Part shown: positions 36,615 through 47,946 of the stretch, in pieces | How the letters are laid out: each line of letters opens with the position of its first letter | How positions within the stretch are numbered: the stretch's first letter is position 1 | Assembly (NCBI GenBank): GCA_018817315.1 | Contig: JAHITV010000035.1 | Coordinates: forward strand, 22,473 to 86,472 | DNA length: 64,000 nt | DNA from: Patescibacteria group bacterium | GTDB lineage: Bacteria > Patescibacteriota > Patescibacteriia > UBA1558 > UBA10009 | Direction of reading: 5' to 3' | Translations under genes and position numbers: made by a program | The notes under the pieces: model-generated | Told to the model about the DNA's origin: nothing | Database searches by the model: none | The model's input: the letters and a program-made list of their open reading frames with translations, nothing else

Positions 36615-36689
36615 GTCCCTGTAGTTCAATGGATAGAACAAGAGACTCCTAAGCTCTGGATAGAGGTTCAATTCCTCTCAGGGACACCA
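36615..36689 (+). tRNA. tRNA-Arg (anticodon CCT), CCA encoded
   Basis: Hand-folded cloverleaf: acceptor gtccctg/cagggac, D-arm gttc-aatggata-gaac, anticodon loop cTCCTaa, T-arm agagg-ttcaatt-cctct, then A-CCA. Confidence 0.85.
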
Positions 36690-36690
36690 T

Positions 36691-36767
36691 GGGCCGTTAG
36701 CTTAGTTGGCTAGAGCGCTACATTCGCATTGTAGAGGTCGCCGGTTCGACTCCGGCACGGTCCACCA
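36691..36767 (+). tRNA. tRNA-Ala (anticodon CGC), CCA encoded
   Basis: Acceptor gggccgt/acggtcc with the G3-U70 alanine identity pair. Anticodon stem ctaca/tgtag, loop ttCGCat. T-arm gccgg-ttcgact-ccggc. Confidence 0.85.
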
Positions 36768-37299: not shown

Positions 37300-37376
37300 G
37301 GGGATATAGCTCAGTTGGCTAGAGCGTCTGCATGGCATGCAGAAGGTCGAGGGTTCAAGCCCCTCTATCTCCACCA
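37300..37376 (+). tRNA. tRNA-Ala (anticodon GGC), CCA encoded
   Basis: Acceptor ggggata/tatctcc with G3-U70. Anticodon stem tctgc/gcaga, loop atGGCat. T-arm gaggg-ttcaagc-ccctc. Confidence 0.85.
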
Positions 37377-41144: not shown

Positions 41145-41705
41145 ATGAACAATCAACGAATCGCTGGCGGCAATGAATTACTAAACCCAGAACATTTATT
41201 AAAAAATATTTTGAAGATAGCTTACCAATCTAAGGTGGCTGATTTAGGATGCGGTTCCATGGGTTTTTTTACTTTACAAGCAGCTAAACTAATTGGTGAT
41301 AAAGGCACAGTATATGCCGTTGATATATTAAGAGAAGTCCTTTCCAGTATAGAAAGCAGATCAAGACAGGAAGGTTTATATAACATTAAAACTATTTGGT
41401 CTAATTTGGAAATAGTAGGAGCAACTAAGATTCCTCAAGAAAGTCTGGATTATACTATTTTAGTTAATACTTTGTTTCAAACACAAAAACATAGAGAAGT
41501 GTTGGCAGAATCTTTTAATTTATTAAAAGCAGGAGGCAGGCTTTTAGTAGTAGAATGGAAAACTTCTGGCGGTCCTATTGGACCCACGCAAGAGATGCGC
41601 ATCAGTCTTGAAGAAGTTAAACAATTATCCATTGAACTAGGTTTTAAAATAGAAAGAGAATTTGTAGCCGGTGATAATCATTACGGAATTATTTTTATAA
41701 AATAA
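41145..41705 (+). CDS. class I SAM-dependent methyltransferase
   Basis: Motif I VADLGCGSMGFFT, post-I acidic residue, motif IV LKAGGRLLVVEW. Confidence 0.7.
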   Translation: MNNQRIAGGNELLNPEHLLKNILKIAYQSKVADLGCGSMGFFTLQAAKLIGDKGTVYAVDILREVLSSIESRSRQEGLYNIKTIWSNLEIVGATKIPQESLDYTILVNTLFQTQKHREVLAESFNLLKAGGRLLVVEWKTSGGPIGPTQEMRISLEEVKQLSIELGFKIEREFVAGDNHYGIIFIK

Positions 41706-41780
41706 AAATATTATAGATAATAGTCTTTTTTTCTTGACTATTTTTAATTGATTAATTATACTGCTGGATAAATAGATAAA

Positions 41781-42182
41781 ATGTTAGAGAATATTTTAAA
41801 AACTGATTATTGGTTCGCTACTAAACCTTTGGCTTTTAATCCTTTGATTTTAAAGATTCTTTTAGTGGTGTTTATTGTAATCATAATTTTGGCGATAATA
41901 TCTTCACTTTTATTTTTAAAAAAACCAAAGGACAAATTATCCAAAAAAATATGGTCCAAACTTACTAACTGGCTTTATGCTTTTGGAATTGTTAATTTGA
42001 TTTTTGTCTTTTTTAGACAGGAAAGAATTCCTTATTTAAGTATGAGATTGATAATGTTTTTATGGTTATTGGCAAGCTTTATTTGGTTAATATTTATTTT
42101 AAGGTTTATGTTTTTGAAAATTCCAAAAGTAAAGAGAGAACAGACGCAAAAAGAAGAGCTGGAAAAATATCTTCCTAAATAA
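41781..42182 (+). CDS. hypothetical small membrane protein
   Basis: 133 aa with three predicted TM helices and no recognisable motifs. Confidence 0.35.
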   Translation: MLENILKTDYWFATKPLAFNPLILKILLVVFIVIIILAIISSLLFLKKPKDKLSKKIWSKLTNWLYAFGIVNLIFVFFRQERIPYLSMRLIMFLWLLASFIWLIFILRFMFLKIPKVKREQTQKEELEKYLPK

Positions 42183-42269
42183 AATATTTTAAAATATTCA
42201 ATAAAAAACAGGGTTTACAGAAACCTTGTTTTTTAAATAGATAATAATGGATAATCAAAAAAGTTTTGA

Positions 42270-42312
42270 TTAGTAGGATAAAAAAAGGCCGAGGAATTTG
42301 ATGTCTTCCTCG
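42270..42312 (-). terminator. GC-rich intrinsic terminator for the minus-strand repeat-protein gene
   Basis: ggccgaggaa-loop-ttcctcggc (9-bp stem). On the minus strand it is followed by TTTTTTT. Confidence 0.55.
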
Positions 42313-42347
42313 GCATGTAGAGAATGCGATTTTGTTGCAGAAAGTTG

Positions 42348-42917
42348 TTAGTCGCCCTTTTGTTGATCGCGCAATGTTTTTAGGTGGGTGATCACGCCTT
42401 GTTTAGCAAGGTTAAACATCCAGATCATTGTTGAATCTTCGGTAAATATATGGCCATTGAACCTCGCGTTGTTGCAGTTGAAATCCCTAAACGTCGCTCC
42501 TTTGCAGTCGAAATCGTTACAGTGAAACTCCCCATTAAACGTCGCTTCGCTGCATTCGAAAATCCCATTAAACGTCGCTTTGTGGCAGTAAAACTCCCCA
42601 TTAAACGTCGCTTTTTTGCAGTTGAAATCCTCGAACGTCGCTCCGTGGCAGAAGAAGCTTTCATTAAACGTCGCTTCGCCGCAGTCGAAATTTTTTGTGA
42701 ATCGTGCTTTTTGGCAAAGGAAATGTCCTGAAACCTCCAGGTTACCACACGAGAAATCTTTCTCGAAGATGGTATTAGCCAACTCAATACCATGAGCAAA
42801 AGTCATCGAAGAAAGAGAGACATCCTTGGTAACAATCAAATTTTCTGGGAGCTGACCGTTATTCTTTTCCAGGAGTTCAAAGAACTCCTTAGCAGTTATT
42901 CGTTTACTTTCAGACAT
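42348..42917 (-). CDS. Cys/Phe-rich tandem-repeat protein (11-aa repeat xCxxATFNGEF), pentapeptide-repeat-like
   Basis: Start ATG at 42917 has an AGGAAA SD 8 nt upstream; the longer ORF-track start at 43034 is unsupported. Protein carries at least 7 repeats (FDCGEATFNES/FFCHGATFEDF/NCKKATFNGEF/YCHKATFNGIF/ECSEATFNGEF...). The region is visibly more GC-rich than its flanks. Confidence 0.5.
   Translation of the reverse strand: MSESKRITAKEFFELLEKNNGQLPENLIVTKDVSLSSMTFAHGIELANTIFEKDFSCGNLEVSGHFLCQKARFTKNFDCGEATFNESFFCHGATFEDFNCKKATFNGEFYCHKATFNGIFECSEATFNGEFHCNDFDCKGATFRDFNCNNARFNGHIFTEDSTMIWMFNLAKQGVITHLKTLRDQQKGD
42455..42720. repeat. tandem 33-bp imperfect DNA repeats (about 7 units) inside the repeat-protein gene
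   Basis: Repeated unit ccccattaaacgtcgcttNNNNgcagtNgaaatNN, e.g. at 42488, 42535, 42568, 42601, 42634 and 42667. Confidence 0.8.
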
Positions 42918-43072
42918 TGTTTTCCTACTTTCTTTTTTCTTTGTTTTTTTTGTTGCATTTGTCAAAAAATCGATTAATGTATAATAATAGCATATTTTAA
43001 TATTTTTGTCAAGTATTTTAGATATAAATAACAAAACTATTTATATATTTGGCTAATATTAGCTAAAAAATT

Positions 43073-43438
43073 ATGAAAAATAATCAAAAAACAGCTAAAC
43101 TTGGCGAAGATTTAGCTTGCCAGTATTTAATCAGGAAAAAATATCAGATTTTAGGTAGAAATATTAAGTATAGAGAAGGTGAAATTGATATTATTGCCCA
43201 AAAAGACAAGCAACTTATCTTTATAGAAGTAAAAACCCGGACAAATTTTAGATTTGGTTATGGAGAGCAGTCTTTTGATTTAAGGAAGAGGCAAAAATTG
43301 GAAAAAGCCATTTTAAAATATATTTATCAACATAATTATCAGGGTGCATGGCGCGTGGATCTAATAACTATTGAAATCAATAATAAAAAAGCTTGGTTAC
43401 GTCATTATTTATCACAAGAGCTTGGGCATGAATATTAA
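43073..43438 (+). CDS. YraN family (UPF0102) putative endonuclease
   Basis: GEDLACQYLIRKKYQILGRNIKYREGEIDIIAQKD...FIEVKTR, a PD-(D/E)xK core typical of YraN. 121 aa. Confidence 0.75.
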   Translation: MKNNQKTAKLGEDLACQYLIRKKYQILGRNIKYREGEIDIIAQKDKQLIFIEVKTRTNFRFGYGEQSFDLRKRQKLEKAILKYIYQHNYQGAWRVDLITIEINNKKAWLRHYLSQELGHEY

Positions 43439-43504
43439 CTTATTTTCCATAGTTTATACACAATTTTTCATATTGATTTTTAAAATGAATAAAGTTAAGT
43501 TAGA

Positions 43505-44524
43505 GTGGCGAAAATAAGTTTTTATTCTATGTTTAAAAGAATATATTTATTGATTGGTGTAGTTATTTTTGTTTTTTTAGGGATCTTTTTTAAAGCACAA
43601 ACCATCCAAGCAGACGAAGGTCAATGTCATTTAAAACATTGTTTGGTGCCTGCACCAACAATTGTCATGCCGGAGATTAATACAGAAGTGACATCATTTC
43701 GCCCAGCTATTAGAGGTTTAACTTGGAAGACTACGGTTGTTAAAGTTTATTTAGATGGTAAAGAACTTACTAATATAGAACAAAGAAAGCATGAGGATTA
43801 TTATGCCAGTTTTTTTGTGGTACCAGATTATGATTTAACAGCTGGGGAGCATTACCTTTATACTATTGCTCATTCTGAAAAGCCAGGTTGGTATGATCAA
43901 AGTAAAGAGTCTTTATATATTTATTTTAAAGTTGTTCGTCCGCCGACTAAGATTCCAGAAAAAACCGTTTCCCCCAAAGAACCTCAAACTGAAGTTAAAG
44001 AAGAGGTGACGGAATCTGTGAATATAGAAAAAGAGCTGCAAGAGCTTTATCAACAAACCAATAAACTGGAAATTGTTCCCACTACACCTGATTATTCTAT
44101 TTTTGTTAAAGAAAAATCTACGACTATCCTACAACAACAAGAGGCAGCTGGTTTAAGTGATTTAGGGGAAATATTAAAAAAAGAGCTTATTAAAGAAAGT
44201 TATAAAGATAAACAAAAAAAGAATCGCTTTATTGGCTTGGTGATATTAGGTGTTATTTTGGCGATAATAGCTTTACAGAAAATAATTGAAATAAACTTTA
44301 GAATAAAAAAAGATAAAGTAATGGATGATCAAGGAGAATTACCGCCGCCGCCTCAACCGCCCAAAAAAGACAAACTTTCTTTAGAAGATTTAGAAAAGGT
44401 AAAACAAGAAATTTTAGGTGATTATAGTGATTCTGTTGGGGAAAAAATTGATGAAATAATATCAACACCAGAGTCTAAGATTGTTGCCGAAGAAGAATCT
44501 GATGAACAGGATAAGTTAATCTAA
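43505..44524 (+). CDS. hypothetical exported protein with C-terminal TM anchor and acidic tail
   Basis: Signal peptide, about 130-aa beta-rich domain, low-complexity linker, one TM (FIGLVILGVILAIIAL), then a Pro/Glu-rich C-terminus. Confidence 0.35.
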   Translation: MAKISFYSMFKRIYLLIGVVIFVFLGIFFKAQTIQADEGQCHLKHCLVPAPTIVMPEINTEVTSFRPAIRGLTWKTTVVKVYLDGKELTNIEQRKHEDYYASFFVVPDYDLTAGEHYLYTIAHSEKPGWYDQSKESLYIYFKVVRPPTKIPEKTVSPKEPQTEVKEEVTESVNIEKELQELYQQTNKLEIVPTTPDYSIFVKEKSTTILQQQEAAGLSDLGEILKKELIKESYKDKQKKNRFIGLVILGVILAIIALQKIIEINFRIKKDKVMDDQGELPPPPQPPKKDKLSLEDLEKVKQEILGDYSDSVGEKIDEIISTPESKIVAEEESDEQDKLI

Positions 44525-44624
44525 ATACATTCTTGATTTGACTTAATTGATAATTTGTTATATTCTATGATAGTAAGCTAGTGTTAATACACTAGCTTTT
44601 TATGATAATTTAAACTAAAAATAT

Positions 44625-45866
44625 ATGTCTGATTTAGAAACAGCCATCCAACAAATTTGCGATGAAAAAAATATACCCATTGAAGCTGTTTTAGAAACCA
44701 TTGAAACAGCTTTAGCCGCTGCCTACAGGAAAGATTTTGGGCAGAAAAACCAGAACATTAAGGTTAAATTTGATATTGTTACCCAGAATATGGAGGTTTA
44801 TGATGTCAAAACTGTGGTTGAGGATATGGATTTAGAGGAGTTAGAGAAACAACGAGAAGAACTAGAAGCTAAAAAACTCGCCGGTGAAGAAATTGATGAA
44901 TCCCAACTAAAAAGATTTAATCCCAAGACAGAAATCATGCTTACAGAAGCCAAGGAACTTGACCCTAAAGCAGAAATTGATCAGGAAATAAAAACTAAAT
45001 TGGAAGTGCCTACTGAATTTGGCCGAATGGCTGCCCAAACCGCTAAACAAGTTATTATTCAAAAGTTAAGAGAAGCTGAACGTGATATTATTTATAGTGA
45101 GTTCAAGGAAAAAGAAGGACAATTGGTTAATGCAGTAGTGCAGCGCCGTGAAGGCAGAATTGTTTATTTAGATATTGGTCACACTTTAGCTATTTTGCCT
45201 TATGAAGAGCAGGCAACTAATGAAAAATATGTTTCGGGCCAACGTTTAAAAATTATCATAGTTTCGGTGAACTTAACCCCTAAAGGACCAGAAATAATTG
45301 TTTCGCGTGCGCGGTCAGCTTTATTGGAAGAATTATTTAAAGCCGAAGTTCCAGAAATAAATTCAGGTATTGTAGAAATTAAGACCATAGCCAGAGAAGC
45401 AGGTTTACGGTCAAAAATTGCAGTTCTTTCTCATCAGGAAAGTATTGATCCCATTGGTTCTTGCGTGGGTCAGCGCGGTACACGCGTTCAAACAATTATT
45501 AATGAATTAGGAGGTGAAAAAATTGATATTGTTGAATGGAGTGAAGATCCGGAAAAATTTATTATTAATGCTTTGTCACCAGCTAAGGTTACTTCTTTAA
45601 AATTAAATGATGAAAATAATTCAGTTTTAGTTAAAGTTGCCGAAGATCAACTATCTTTAGCTATTGGAAAATCTGGACAGAATGTTCGGCTAGCCGCTAA
45701 ATTAACTAACAGAAAAATTGATATTGAAGGAGTAGAAAAAGTAAAACAAGAGACTGAAACAGAAGCAGAAAAAAGTAAAGAAGAAGAGAAAGACTCTAAA
45801 GATGTTACTAAAAATCAGGATACCCCAAGGATAGATAGCAAAGAAAATAAGGAAAATAAATCCTAA
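44625..45866 (+). CDS. nusA: transcription termination/antitermination factor NusA
   Basis: N-terminal domain, S1 domain and two KH domains (IGSCVGQRGTRVQTIINELGGEKIDIVEW), plus a C-terminal acidic/Lys-rich tail. Confidence 0.9.
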   Translation: MSDLETAIQQICDEKNIPIEAVLETIETALAAAYRKDFGQKNQNIKVKFDIVTQNMEVYDVKTVVEDMDLEELEKQREELEAKKLAGEEIDESQLKRFNPKTEIMLTEAKELDPKAEIDQEIKTKLEVPTEFGRMAAQTAKQVIIQKLREAERDIIYSEFKEKEGQLVNAVVQRREGRIVYLDIGHTLAILPYEEQATNEKYVSGQRLKIIIVSVNLTPKGPEIIVSRARSALLEELFKAEVPEINSGIVEIKTIAREAGLRSKIAVLSHQESIDPIGSCVGQRGTRVQTIINELGGEKIDIVEWSEDPEKFIINALSPAKVTSLKLNDENNSVLVKVAEDQLSLAIGKSGQNVRLAAKLTNRKIDIEGVEKVKQETETEAEKSKEEEKDSKDVTKNQDTPRIDSKENKENKS

Positions 45867-45951
45867 ATTCCGTTCGGCCTGTCTCGATGCCGAATCGACA
45901 CGGAGGTGAGCTCACAGCCGAAGGCTAAACAAATTTTAATAATATAAATTT

Positions 45952-47946
45952 ATGTCAACAGGATTAATCTTTTCTTTAATAGCAGCTGTAACTGCTTTAA
46001 TTTACGGAGTGATTTTAATCAGCTTAGTTTTTAAGAAACCTAAAGGTTCTCCTAAAATGCAAGAAATCGCCGGTGCAATTCAGCAGGGAGCCAAAGCATA
46101 TTTAAATCGTCAATACAAAACAATTGCAGTTATTGCCATTGTTTTATTTTTTCTTCTTTGGGTGGTTTTAGGTTTTAAGATTGCTTTAGGATTTATAATC
46201 GGAGCTATCCTTTCTGCTTTAGCCGGTTATATTGGTATGAATGTTTCTGTTAGAGCCAATGTAAGAACTTGTGAAGCTGCTAAAACTGGCTTAGCTCCTG
46301 CCTTAAAAATAGCAGTTAATGGCGGGGCAGTAACCGGACTTTTAGTGGTAGGTTTGGGACTATTGGGCGTTGCTGGTTTTTATGCCTTAACCGGTGATGT
46401 TAAAGCTTTAATCGGTCTTGGTTTTGGCGGAAGTTTAATTTCGATTTTTGCTCGTTTGGGTGGCGGTATTTTTACCAAAGCCGCTGATGTGGGCGCAGAT
46501 TTGGTAGGTAAAGTTGAAGCCGGTATTCCAGAGGATGATCCCAGAAATCCAGCAGTTATTGCAGATAACGTTGGTGATAATGTAGGAGATTGTGCTGGTA
46601 TGGCCGCTGATTTGTTTGAAACATATGTAGTCACTTTAGTGGCAGCCATGCTTTTGGGTCTTTTAACCTTTGGTTTGTATCCCAATGCTTTGGTTTACCC
46701 TTTGGTTATTGGCGGTGTTTCCATTTTAACTTCCATTATCGGCGTTTGGTTTATTAGACTTGGTAAAAAGAATAATATTATGGGAGCTTTGTATAAAGGT
46801 TTACTGGTCAGTGGAATTCTGGCTGCTATTATTTTTTATCCTGTAACTCGTTGGTTAATGAGCGAGACTGGGCAATATTCAATTTTACCTTTATATCTGG
46901 TTTCTTTGATTGGTTTAGTGGTTACAGCTTTAATGGTAATTATTACTGAATATTATACTTCTACTAAATATCAACCAGTTAAATCTATTGCTAAAGCTTC
47001 TCAATCAGGTTCTGGTCCTAATATTATTATTGGTTTGGCTGTGTCTTTAAGGTCAACAGTCTGGCCTATTGTAGTGATTGGTGCAGCAATTCTTGCTAGT
47101 TATGAATTAGCCGGACTTTACGGTATAGCTATTGCTGCTATGAGTATGTTGTCTTTGGCTGGGATTATTGTAACTATTGATTCTTATGGTCCGATTACTG
47201 ATAATGCCGGAGGTATTGCTGAAATGGCAGGTTTGGATGAATCAGTAAGAAAAGTGACTGATCCTTTGGATGCCGTTGGAAATACCACTAAAGCAGTTAC
47301 TAAAGGTTATGCTATTGCTTCTGCAGGACTGGCTACTTTGGTTTTATTTGCTTCTTATGTTCAAGAATTTGCTAACCGTGGTATTAGTTTGGATTTTCCT
47401 TTGGACAACCCCTTAGTTTTAGTCGGTTTGTTTATTGGAGGAGTTTTGCCTTATATTTTCGCTTCTTTTGCCATGGGTGCTGTAGGTAAAACTGCGGGCG
47501 CTGTAGTAACTGAAGTGCGCAGGCAGTTTAAGGAAATAGCGGGAATTATGGAAGGAACCGCTAAGCCGAATTATTCTAAAACCGTGGATATTGTTACTAA
47601 AGCTGCTTTAAAACAAATGATTCTCCCCTCTTTGATTCCGGTAGTTATTCCAGTTTTAGTTGGTTTTATTTTAGGACCTATTGCTTTGGGCGGAGTTTTG
47701 GTGGGCAGTATTATTACCGGATTATTTGTGGCAATTTCTATGACTTCTGGCGGCGGTGCTTGGGATAATGCTAAAAAATATATTGAAGAAGGTAATTACG
47801 GCGGCAAAGGTTCAGCAGCGCATAAAGCTGCAGTTGTCGGTGATACAGTTGGTGATCCTTATAAAGATACAGCCGGCCCTGCTATTAATCCGATGATCAA
47901 AATATTGAATATTGTGGCTTTGTTGTTGGTGGCGTTGTTGATATAA
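45952..47946 (+). CDS. hppA: H+-translocating (V-type) inorganic pyrophosphatase
   Basis: [18 protein letters not shown] and [11 protein letters not shown] motifs. 16 TM and 664 aa. GNTTKA (Lys, not Ala) suggests the K+-independent subtype. Confidence 0.9.

What the first reader, a model, noticed from the sequence alone, without database searches (positions are those of the whole stretch)
42348..42917. GC-enriched island encoding a Cys/Phe-rich 11-aa tandem-repeat protein on the opposite strand
This region is visibly richer in G+C than anything around it. It is built from about seven 33-bp tandem DNA repeats, which translate to xCxxATFNGEF units. A GC-rich intrinsic terminator follows, and the gene lies on the minus strand amid plus-strand housekeeping genes. 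Compositional deviation plus repeat structure suggest horizontal acquisition. Alternatively, the protein may be under repeat expansion and contraction, like a contingency locus. The repeat is pentapeptide-like (A-x-F-x-x) but with an unusual period of 11.
Basis: seen in the sequence. Interest (0 to 1): 0.5.

Follow-up and report, generated by a model that had tools for sequence, protein, structure and literature searches.

The report
Foreign pentapeptide-like beta-helix gene insertion
A small gene with foreign-looking codon usage has been inserted between two conserved housekeeping genes of a Patescibacteria (CPR) genome; it encodes a rod-shaped repeat protein distantly related to the common pentapeptide-repeat family, and its function is unknown.

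Summary
Window 42348-42917 (minus strand) is a real 189-aa gene. It is the GC maximum of the window (42.8% against 32.6 +/- 3.5%). It contains ten degenerate repeat units (7 x 33, 2 x 30 and 1 x 15 bp), and a 9-bp hairpin plus U7 terminator follows it.

The excess GC lies entirely at third codon positions: GC3 is 0.52 against 0.24 +/- 0.03 in 54 other ORFs (z = 8.7). In six of nine syntenic relatives the two flanking genes sit 42-108 bp apart. Here the gap is 890 bp and holds only this gene. Horizontal acquisition is therefore well supported.

The 11-residue period is a 5+6 double unit and is normal for PF13576, so it is not unusual. What differs is the second half-unit, F-x-C instead of A-x-[FL].

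The contingency-locus reading is not supported, because the units average only 59.5% DNA identity. Function is unknown. My low-confidence guess (about 0.2) is a Qnr/MfpA-like mimic that binds a partner protein. Interest is modest.

The parts
42348..42917 (-). Coding sequence of a 189-aa, 21.6-kDa protein (ATG at 42917-42915, TAA stop at 42350-42348) with no signal peptide. It is a divergent Pentapeptide_3-like beta-helix protein.
   Evidence: ORF and translation. There are 99 protein-level relatives, the best at E = 6e-22. AlphaFold2 gives pLDDT 78 from the single sequence and 90.7 with an alignment. GC3 is 0.519 against 0.242 in the other ORFs.
42450..42755 (-). Repeat array, residues 55-156. 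It holds ten units F-x-C-x-x-A-T-F-N-G-x: seven of 33 bp, two of 30 bp and one of 15 bp. Two units make one beta-helix coil of 21-22 residues.
   Evidence: The DSSP strand pattern repeats every 21-22 residues.
42864..42893 (-). N-terminal capping helix, residues 9-18. The motif ITAKEFFELL is conserved as ITAxEFxxxL in the family.
   Evidence: Alignment A2; DSSP assigns helix 9-18 at pLDDT 95-98.
42357..42434 (-). Two C-terminal helices, residues 162-172 and 179-187. The family motif is AWVIxxYKxxGV. This is a candidate dimerisation element by analogy with MfpA, Qnr, AlbG and PENT.
   Evidence: (pLDDT 85-88), and the description of C-terminal helix dimers in PMC8145042. Dimerisation itself is inferred and was not tested.
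42280..42314 (-). Intrinsic terminator of the gene: a 9-bp stem with 6 G-C pairs and a 9-nt loop (42288-42314), then C and U7 (42280-42286).
   Evidence: -16.7 kcal/mol, z = -4.5, 0 of 200 shuffles fold as well. Sequence.
42202..42235 (+). Terminator hairpin of the upstream plus-strand membrane-protein gene (41781-42182). It faces the target gene's own terminator and is conserved in the closest relative, L007.
   Evidence: Inverted repeat I7, 15-nt arms, 93% complementary. The homologous hairpin is visible in L007 8363-8392.
42984..43012 (-). Sigma-70-like promoter: TTGACA, 17 nt, then TG-extended TATTAT (11 of 12 positions match). It lies about 65 nt upstream of the ATG.
   Evidence: This is weak evidence on its own, because 3 such sites were found in the region against 2.4 expected.
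42923..42926 (-). Shine-Dalgarno-like AGGA, 5 nt upstream of the ATG.
   Evidence: Read directly from the sequence.
42236..43072 (.). Approximate extent of the DNA present here but absent from the closest syntenic relatives. It runs from the end of the membrane-protein terminator to the yraN start codon.
   Evidence: The gap between the membrane-protein gene and yraN is 42-108 nt in L007, L009, L006, L005, L010 and L011, against 890 nt here. There is no tblastn hit of the protein in any of 81 related loci.
42251..42262 (+). Left copy of the 12-nt word ATAATCAAAAAA. It sits within ATGGATAATCAAAAAA, at the position where yraN starts in L007. The right copy, at 43080-43091, is the true yraN 5' end. 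This may be a junction duplication or a microhomology used in the insertion.
   Evidence: (direct repeat D3). The chance probability is about 3-4%, so this is tentative.

Best explanation
The region is a real, monocistronic, recently acquired foreign gene. It sits in a variable spot of an otherwise conserved housekeeping block of a Patescibacteria (CPR) genome related to Komeilibacteria.

It encodes a cytoplasmic 189-aa protein that folds into a right-handed four-sided beta-helix. The parts are: an N-terminal capping helix; about five to six coils of 21-22 residues, each made of two 11-residue units (A-T-F-N-G-x + F-x-C-x-x) whose Phe, Ala and Cys side chains stack as ladders in the core; and two C-terminal helices.

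It is a divergent, stand-alone, minimal relative of the Pentapeptide_3 (PF13576) branch of the pentapeptide-repeat superfamily. It belongs to a rare, unannotated family of small proteins.

Mechanism (inferred, not shown): like other small stand-alone pentapeptide-repeat proteins, it most likely acts as a rigid rod, probably dimerising through its C-terminal helices, that binds a partner macromolecule by surface shape and charge. My single best guess, at a probability of about 0.2, is a DNA mimic that binds a DNA-handling enzyme such as DNA gyrase, as Qnr, MfpA and AlbG do.
For: The gene is real and on the minus strand. There are 99 protein relatives (14 at E <= 1e-10), and the non-repeat N- and C-terminal motifs are conserved. 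The sense frame is fully open in homologues, while the antisense frame carries 7-8 stops in L082 and L084. A terminator, an SD-like motif and a promoter-like site are present.

Family. 52 of 62 large hits and 10 of 38 proteins in the small set (37 hits plus the query) match PF13576. hhalign of the family profile against bona fide PF13576 segments gives 97% probability, E = 9e-11, over 123 columns in register.

Foreign origin. GC3 z = 8.7 with normal GC1 and GC2. The host's rare codons GCG, ACG and GGG dominate the repeats. The gene is absent from all syntenic relatives, and the flanking genes are adjacent in six of them. A different small gene occupies the same site in L013, and other ORFs do in L002. 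Homologues in other contigs match the GC of their own hosts.

Not an assembly artefact. An independent Logan contig spans both junctions at 100% identity.

Architecture. The size and the terminal helices resemble the topoisomerase-protecting pentapeptide-repeat proteins described in PMC8145042.

Against: No mobility gene, tRNA or clear target-site duplication marks the insertion. The 12-nt junction repeat has a 3-4% chance probability. No hit was found in the phage, plasmid or IMG/VR collections.

Against the DNA-mimic guess: the pI is only 5.5 and the family ranges from 4.6 to 8.9. No neighbour is conserved among six genomic contexts. There is no PADLOC hit. No Qnr or MfpA model matches.
Confidence: 0.72

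Rival explanations
1. Contingency or phase-variable locus: the 33-bp repeats expand and contract frequently, varying the protein between cells.
For: The array is in frame, so changes in unit number would keep the reading frame. A 23-nt exact repeat at 66-nt spacing exists. In a relative with near-perfect repeats, two sequences that are 97% identical differ by exactly one 11-aa unit (P0002 and P0108).
Against: Units average 59.5% DNA identity (range 39-85%), far from the near-identity that drives slipped-strand mispairing. The six members of the P0001 cluster (85-93% identical) are all 196 aa with no indel. The only other assembly of this locus is identical, although it may come from the same sample. 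The protein is cytoplasmic rather than a surface antigen, and the repeats are structural coils.
Confidence: 0.06
2. Native, vertically inherited gene: its GC excess only reflects amino-acid composition or repeat homogenisation, and the relatives have lost it.
For: Ala, Gly and Cys codons are GC-rich. The closest relative recovered is distant (73% NusA identity), so independent losses are conceivable. The site is variable in other lineages.
Against: GC1 and GC2 are normal, and only GC3 deviates (z = 8.7). The non-repeat N- and C-terminal parts also have GC3 of 0.42 and 0.47 against 0.24. Synonymous choices are the host's rarest codons: GCG has a background frequency of 0.07 and ACG 0.05. The gene is absent from all nine syntenic loci.
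Confidence: 0.07
3. The real gene is the antisense plus-strand ORF 42450-42731 (93 aa), as a public gene call has it, or the region is non-coding.
For: The gene caller used for Logan contig SRR6514274_127123 called exactly that plus-strand ORF. In that frame the GC-rich position is codon position 1, which looks more native to a low-GC genome.
Against: The antisense frame is interrupted by 7-8 stops in homologues L082 and L084, while the sense frame is intact. The sense protein has conserved non-repeat termini, 99 relatives and a high-confidence fold. The terminator and the SD-like motif serve the minus strand.
Confidence: 0.02
4. Metagenome assembly chimera: the GC-rich segment belongs to another organism.
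For: The source is evidently a metagenome-assembled CPR genome, and the segment is compositionally foreign.
Against: Both junctions lie inside one independent 1,905-bp Logan contig that is 100% identical to the window. The host's synteny resumes precisely on both sides. The flanks carry a matched promoter and terminator, and the neighbour's terminator is intact.
Confidence: 0.03

Closest known systems
Pfam PF13576 Pentapeptide_3 repeat proteins (pentapeptide clan)
   Same: Both have the 11-residue (5+6) double unit with an A-T-F-[SN]-G-x first half. Both have an N-terminal 'ITAxE...' helix and cap ahead of the repeats. 62 of the 99 sequence relatives carry PF13576, and the profile-profile match is 97% in register.
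   Different: The query itself scores nothing on the PF13576 model. Its second half-unit is F-x-C-x-x instead of A-x-[FL]-x-x, so the large and small core residues are swapped, giving a Cys ladder. It is a minimal stand-alone 189-aa protein, whereas most PF13576 relatives are proteins of 500-1,700 aa, often with membrane or NTPase modules.
Topoisomerase-protecting pentapeptide-repeat proteins: MfpA (2BM4), QnrB1 (2XTW), AhQnr (3PSS), EfsQnr (2W7Z), AlbG (2XT2) and PENT (6FLS)
   Different: Sequence identity in the structural alignments is only 6-16%, and there is no sequence-level match. The coils have 21-22 residues rather than 20, and there are about 6 coils rather than 8-10. The surface is not markedly acidic (pI 5.5; family 4.6-8.9). 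No evidence links it to gyrase.
Canonical pentapeptide-repeat proteins of PF00805 (Rfr fold, for example Np275/276 and Rfr32)
   Same: [quoted passage not shown]
   Different: The canonical definition is at least 8 contiguous 5-residue repeats with four per 20-residue coil (PMC8145042). Here the units alternate between 5 and 6 residues. A Pentapeptide_3-type profile aligns to solved pentapeptide-repeat proteins only with recurrent one-residue gaps, about one per 11-residue unit. No solved structure of the 11-mer type was found.

Membership tests
Pfam PF13576 Pentapeptide_3 | Score at or above the curated gathering threshold (27 bits) on the family HMM | tested here: not met
   There is no Pfam hit at all, even at E <= 10. 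Only 10 of the 38 proteins in the small set reach E <= 0.01.
Pfam PF13576 Pentapeptide_3 | An 11-residue (5+6) double repeat with an A-T-F-[SN]-G-x first half | tested here: met
   The spacings between successive A-x-F motifs are 11, 11, 10, 11, 11, 16 and 10, and the unit table is. Bona fide PF13576 segments have a strict period of 11.
Pfam PF13576 Pentapeptide_3 | Detectable homology to accepted members | tested here: met
   phmmer relatives include 62 PF13576-positive proteins. hhalign gives 97% probability and E = 9e-11. Repeat composition may inflate these scores.
Pentapeptide-repeat superfamily (Rfr fold) | At least 8 contiguous 5-residue repeats of consensus [STAV][DN][LF][STR][G], four per 20-residue coil (PMC8145042) | tested here: not met
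   The units alternate between 5 and 6 residues, and every second one is F-x-C-x-x. The coils have 21-22 residues. PF00805 does not match.
Pentapeptide-repeat superfamily (Rfr fold) | Right-handed quadrilateral beta-helix | tested here: met
Qnr/MfpA/AlbG-type topoisomerase-protecting pentapeptide-repeat proteins | Small stand-alone beta-helix with a C-terminal dimerisation helix | tested here: inconclusive
   C-terminal helices 162-172 and 179-187 are predicted. Dimerisation could not be modelled with these tools.
Qnr/MfpA/AlbG-type topoisomerase-protecting pentapeptide-repeat proteins | Acidic, DNA-like surface | tested here: inconclusive
   Net charge is -7 and pI 5.5. Relatives range from pI 4.6 to 8.9. 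No surface electrostatics were computed.
Qnr/MfpA/AlbG-type topoisomerase-protecting pentapeptide-repeat proteins | Binds DNA gyrase and protects it from poisons | not testable with these tools
   This needs biochemical assays or MIC measurements.
Qnr/MfpA/AlbG-type topoisomerase-protecting pentapeptide-repeat proteins | Sequence membership in the curated Qnr or MfpA models | tested here: not met
   There is no NCBIfam hit for the query, and none in this class for 37 relatives. There is no sequence match in the PDB.
Contingency (phase-variable repeat) locus | Tandem repeats of near-identical sequence that are prone to slippage | tested here: not met
   Mean unit identity is 59.5% and the longest exact repeat is 23 nt.
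Contingency (phase-variable repeat) locus | Copy-number differences between closely related genomes or reads | tested here: inconclusive
   The only other assembly is identical. One 11-aa indel occurs between two relatives that are 97% identical, and none among the six members of another cluster.
Horizontally acquired gene or islet | Composition deviates from the host at synonymous sites | tested here: met
   GC3 is 0.519 against 0.242 +/- 0.032, z = 8.7.
Horizontally acquired gene or islet | Absent from the conserved syntenic context in relatives | tested here: met
   the flanking genes are adjacent in six relatives, and the protein has no tblastn hit in 81 loci.
Horizontally acquired gene or islet | Mobility signatures (integrase or transposase, tRNA target, flanking direct repeats) | tested here: inconclusive
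   No mobility gene or tRNA is adjacent. There is only a 12-nt junction repeat with a chance probability of about 0.03-0.04.

The most novel reading that the evidence does not exclude
The protein represents a structurally unsolved class of beta-helix: 22 residues per coil, alternating 5- and 6-residue sides, with internal Cys ladders. In this reading a CPR bacterium acquired it horizontally as a DNA or protein mimic, to shield its gyrase from a toxin or to block a nuclease of its host or a phage. That would be the first functional assignment for any Pentapeptide_3-type protein.
Probability: 0.12. Interest if true: 0.5.

Novelty: new variant of a known kind. Interest (0 to 1): 0.25.

Why it matters
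This is mainly a clean, small example of single-gene horizontal insertion into a streamlined CPR genome.

Three points are of modest wider use:

1. A rare family of small Cys/Phe-rich beta-helix proteins is invisible to Pfam and NCBIfam.
2. No solved structure was found for the 11-residue (5+6) pentapeptide variant, so its 22-residue coil geometry is known only from prediction.
3. Because GC3 is high, a public gene call picked the antisense ORF. Members of this family acquired by low-GC genomes may therefore be under-represented in protein databases.

If the protein proved to be a gyrase-protecting or nuclease-blocking mimic, it would extend that mechanism to the Pentapeptide_3 branch and to CPR bacteria.

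Tried and rejected
Searches that gave no hit for the query or led nowhere:
- Pfam, NCBIfam and PADLOC gave no hit for the query. PHROGs gave none for the query and only scattered single-member hits to unnamed families among its relatives.
- The word-indexed search of 5.8 billion proteins found nothing. Only the exhaustive phmmer search found relatives.
- PDB sequence searches with the protein and with the family profile gave only spurious interleukin-4, gp120 and GFP matches.
- Pattern scans for the protein in genome, metagenome and viral contigs found no relatives.
- tblastn against the phage and plasmid collections gave no match.
- Exact look-up of the protein and of a longer TTG-start version found nothing on record. 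The reason is that the public gene call is on the antisense strand.
- Literature searches for PF13576 or Pentapeptide_3 function returned nothing relevant.

Ideas considered and set aside:
- A RiPP precursor or radical-SAM substrate: no maturase genes are nearby.
- An integron cassette: no attC-like site or integrase was seen.

Correction: I labelled 45952-47946 'IF2'. It is an H+-pyrophosphatase.

Full report
**1. What is in the sequence**

Window 42348-42917 holds a minus-strand ORF of 189 codons, with its ATG at 42917 and a TAA stop. An AGGA motif lies 5 nt upstream of the ATG. A TTGACA-17-TG-TATTAT promoter-like site lies at 43012-42984. That site is weak evidence, since three such sites were found in the region against 2.4 expected.

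Downstream there is a 9-bp stem (GCCGAGGAA / UUCCUCGGC, 42288-42314) with a 9-nt loop, followed by C and U7. It folds at -16.7 kcal/mol, z = -4.5 against shuffles. It stands back-to-back with the terminator of the upstream plus-strand gene (42202-42235).

Tandem Repeats Finder reports periods of 33 and 63 nt. Parsed on the protein, residues 55-156 form ten units F-x-C-x-x-A-T-F-N-G-x: seven of 11 aa, two of 10 aa and one of 5 aa. The protein has 10 Cys and 25 Phe.

**2. Composition**

The region is 42.8% GC against 32.6 +/- 3.5% for the window, and it contains the GC maximum of the 64 kb. The runner-up, at 42.5%, lies inside an H+-pyrophosphatase gene.

The two peaks differ in kind. The pyrophosphatase has normal GC3 (0.25). 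The target has normal GC1 and GC2 but GC3 of 0.519, against 0.242 +/- 0.032 in 54 other ORFs (z = 8.7). The shift affects the N-terminal part (0.42), the repeats (0.59) and the C-terminal part (0.47). It is carried by codons that are the host's rarest: GCG has a background share of 0.07, ACG 0.05 and GGG 0.08. TTC is used for 14 of 25 Phe codons against a background of 0.13. This is a synonymous-site signature, not an amino-acid effect.

**3. Context and origin**

The neighbours are thioredoxin, glutamate dehydrogenase, RNase HII, a SAM methyltransferase, a 133-aa membrane protein, UPF0102/YraN, a 339-aa protein, NusA and H+-PPase.

NusA-based retrieval of 80 loci places the window in the Patescibacteria. 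The best match is 73% identical (L007), followed by Komeilibacteria, Kerfeldbacteria and Uhrbacteria at 55-62%.

The block RNaseHII - methyltransferase - membrane protein - YraN - 339-aa protein - NusA - H+-PPase is conserved. In L007, L009, L006, L005, L010 and L011 the membrane-protein gene and yraN are 42-108 nt apart. Here they are 890 nt apart and the gap holds only the target gene. The protein has no tblastn hit in any of the 81 loci.

At the same site L013 carries a different 120-aa gene, and L002 carries two other ORFs. The spot is therefore variable.

Homologues elsewhere match their own hosts' GC: 0.48/0.46, 0.37/0.39, 0.45/0.45, 0.29/0.34 and 0.32/0.37 (gene/contig).

An independent Logan contig from SRR6514274 spans both junctions at 100% identity, which argues against a chimera.

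The 12-nt word ATAATCAAAAAA occurs at the left junction, inside ATGGATAATCAAAAAA, exactly where yraN begins in L007. It occurs again at the true yraN start. Its chance probability is about 3-4%, so a junction duplication or microhomology is possible but unproven.

No integrase, transposase or tRNA is adjacent, and no phage, plasmid or IMG/VR relative was found. Horizontal acquisition is well supported. The vector is unknown.

**4. What the protein is**

Pfam and NCBIfam give nothing, even at E <= 10. An exhaustive phmmer search of 1.84 billion cluster representatives finds 99 relatives, 14 of them at E <= 1e-10 and the best at 6e-22 with 47% identity.

The closest are proteins of 146-275 aa sharing the whole architecture:
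- an N-terminal ITAxEFxxxL helix;
- a cap;
- F-x-C-x-x-A-x-F-x-x-x repeats;
- a C-terminal AWVIxxYKxxGV helix.

These clusters are tiny (1-6 members) and unnamed.

Among the hits, 52 of the 62 large proteins and 10 of the 38 proteins in the small set (37 hits plus the query) match PF13576 Pentapeptide_3. Segments with strong PF13576 scores (106-146 bits) have a strict 11-residue period, A-T-F-S-G-x-A-x-[FL]-x-x. The family profile aligns to them in register at 97% probability, E = 9e-11.

The period of 11 is therefore the norm of that family, a 5+6 double unit. The new feature here is the second half-unit, F-x-C in place of A-x-[FL].

AlphaFold2 gives pLDDT 78 from the single sequence and 90.7 with the family alignment. 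Confidence is 93-98 over residues 1-130, lower at the irregular units 131-160, and 85-88 for C-terminal helices 162-172 and 179-187. The strand pattern repeats every 21-22 residues.

A Pentapeptide_3-type profile aligns to solved pentapeptide-repeat proteins only with recurrent one-residue gaps, about one per 11-residue unit. No structure of the 11-mer type appears to have been solved.

**5. Repeat dynamics**

The 33-nt units are 59.5% identical on average (range 39-85%), and the longest exact repeat is 23 nt. These values fit old, structurally constrained coils. They do not fit a slippage-prone contingency tract.

Two relatives that are 97% identical differ by exactly one 11-aa unit. Six members of another cluster show no indel. 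Unit gain and loss therefore occurs in the family, as in other solenoid proteins, but nothing indicates phase variation here.

**6. Function**

Six genomic contexts of family members share no neighbour. No defence-system model matches, and no literature on PF13576 function was found.

The protein resembles the topoisomerase-protecting pentapeptide-repeat proteins in size, in being stand-alone and cytoplasmic, and in its capping and C-terminal helices. Those proteins dimerise head-to-head through a C-terminal helix and act as DNA mimics on gyrase (PMC8145042).

The resemblance is structural only. The pI is 5.5, the family spans 4.6-8.9, and no Qnr or MfpA model matches.

I therefore commit to 'rigid, probably dimeric, partner-binding rod', with 'DNA mimic acting on gyrase or another DNA enzyme' as the single most likely specific mechanism at about 0.2. 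This is inference.

**7. Verdict**

The gene is a divergent variant of a very common kind of protein, carried on an ordinary single-gene insertion. Interest is modest (0.25).

A side result worth recording concerns annotation. Because the GC-rich codon position mimics position 1 of the opposite strand, the public gene call for this locus is the 93-aa antisense ORF. This is why the real protein is absent from the large protein collections.

Noticed in passing
window 42450-42731 (+), and L085 968-1249: The public gene call for the identical Logan contig (SRR6514274_127123) is the 93-aa antisense ORF, not the 189-aa minus-strand gene. The real protein is therefore missing from the protein collections. 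High GC3 in a low-GC genome probably misleads gene callers, and other members of the family may be hidden in the same way.
   Followed up: partly
window 56053-63699 (+): A giant 2,548-aa ORF with SpvB, TcdB_toxin_midN, FG-GAP and RHS-repeat domains. This is an Rhs/Tc-toxin-like polymorphic toxin, notable in a small CPR genome.
   Followed up: partly
L013 8317-8679 and L002 7978-8785: The intergenic site between the 133-aa membrane-protein gene and yraN holds different small genes in different relatives: a 120-aa plus-strand ORF in L013, and two ORFs with no yraN in L002. It is a recurrent variable spot in an otherwise conserved block.
   Followed up: partly
window 42251-42262 and 43080-43091: The 12-nt word ATAATCAAAAAA is duplicated at the left junction of the insertion and at the yraN start codon region. 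The left copy follows an ATG at the position where yraN begins in L007. The chance probability is about 3-4%.
   Followed up: yes
P0002 and P0108 (relatives, not in the window): Two sequences that are 97% identical differ by exactly one 11-residue repeat unit inside a near-perfect GDFFCGEATFE array. This is direct evidence of unit gain or loss in the family.
   Followed up: yes
window 45952-47946 (+): The second-highest GC peak of the window (42.5% at 46181-46750) lies in an H+-translocating pyrophosphatase gene. Its GC3 is normal (0.25), so this peak reflects amino-acid composition and is not foreign. It serves as a useful internal control.
   Followed up: yes
window 36615-36767 and 37300-37376 (+): A tRNA-Arg(CCT) and tRNA-Ala(CGC) tandem, plus tRNA-Ala(GGC). 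The tRNA-Ala(CGC) would read the GCG codons that are rare in the host but dominate the inserted gene's repeats.
   Followed up: no
L001 and L085 (Logan, SRR6514274): Two short contigs from run SRR6514274 are 100% identical to window 43364-46554 and 41483-43387. The same organism, and possibly the same sample, is therefore present in that run.
   Followed up: partly
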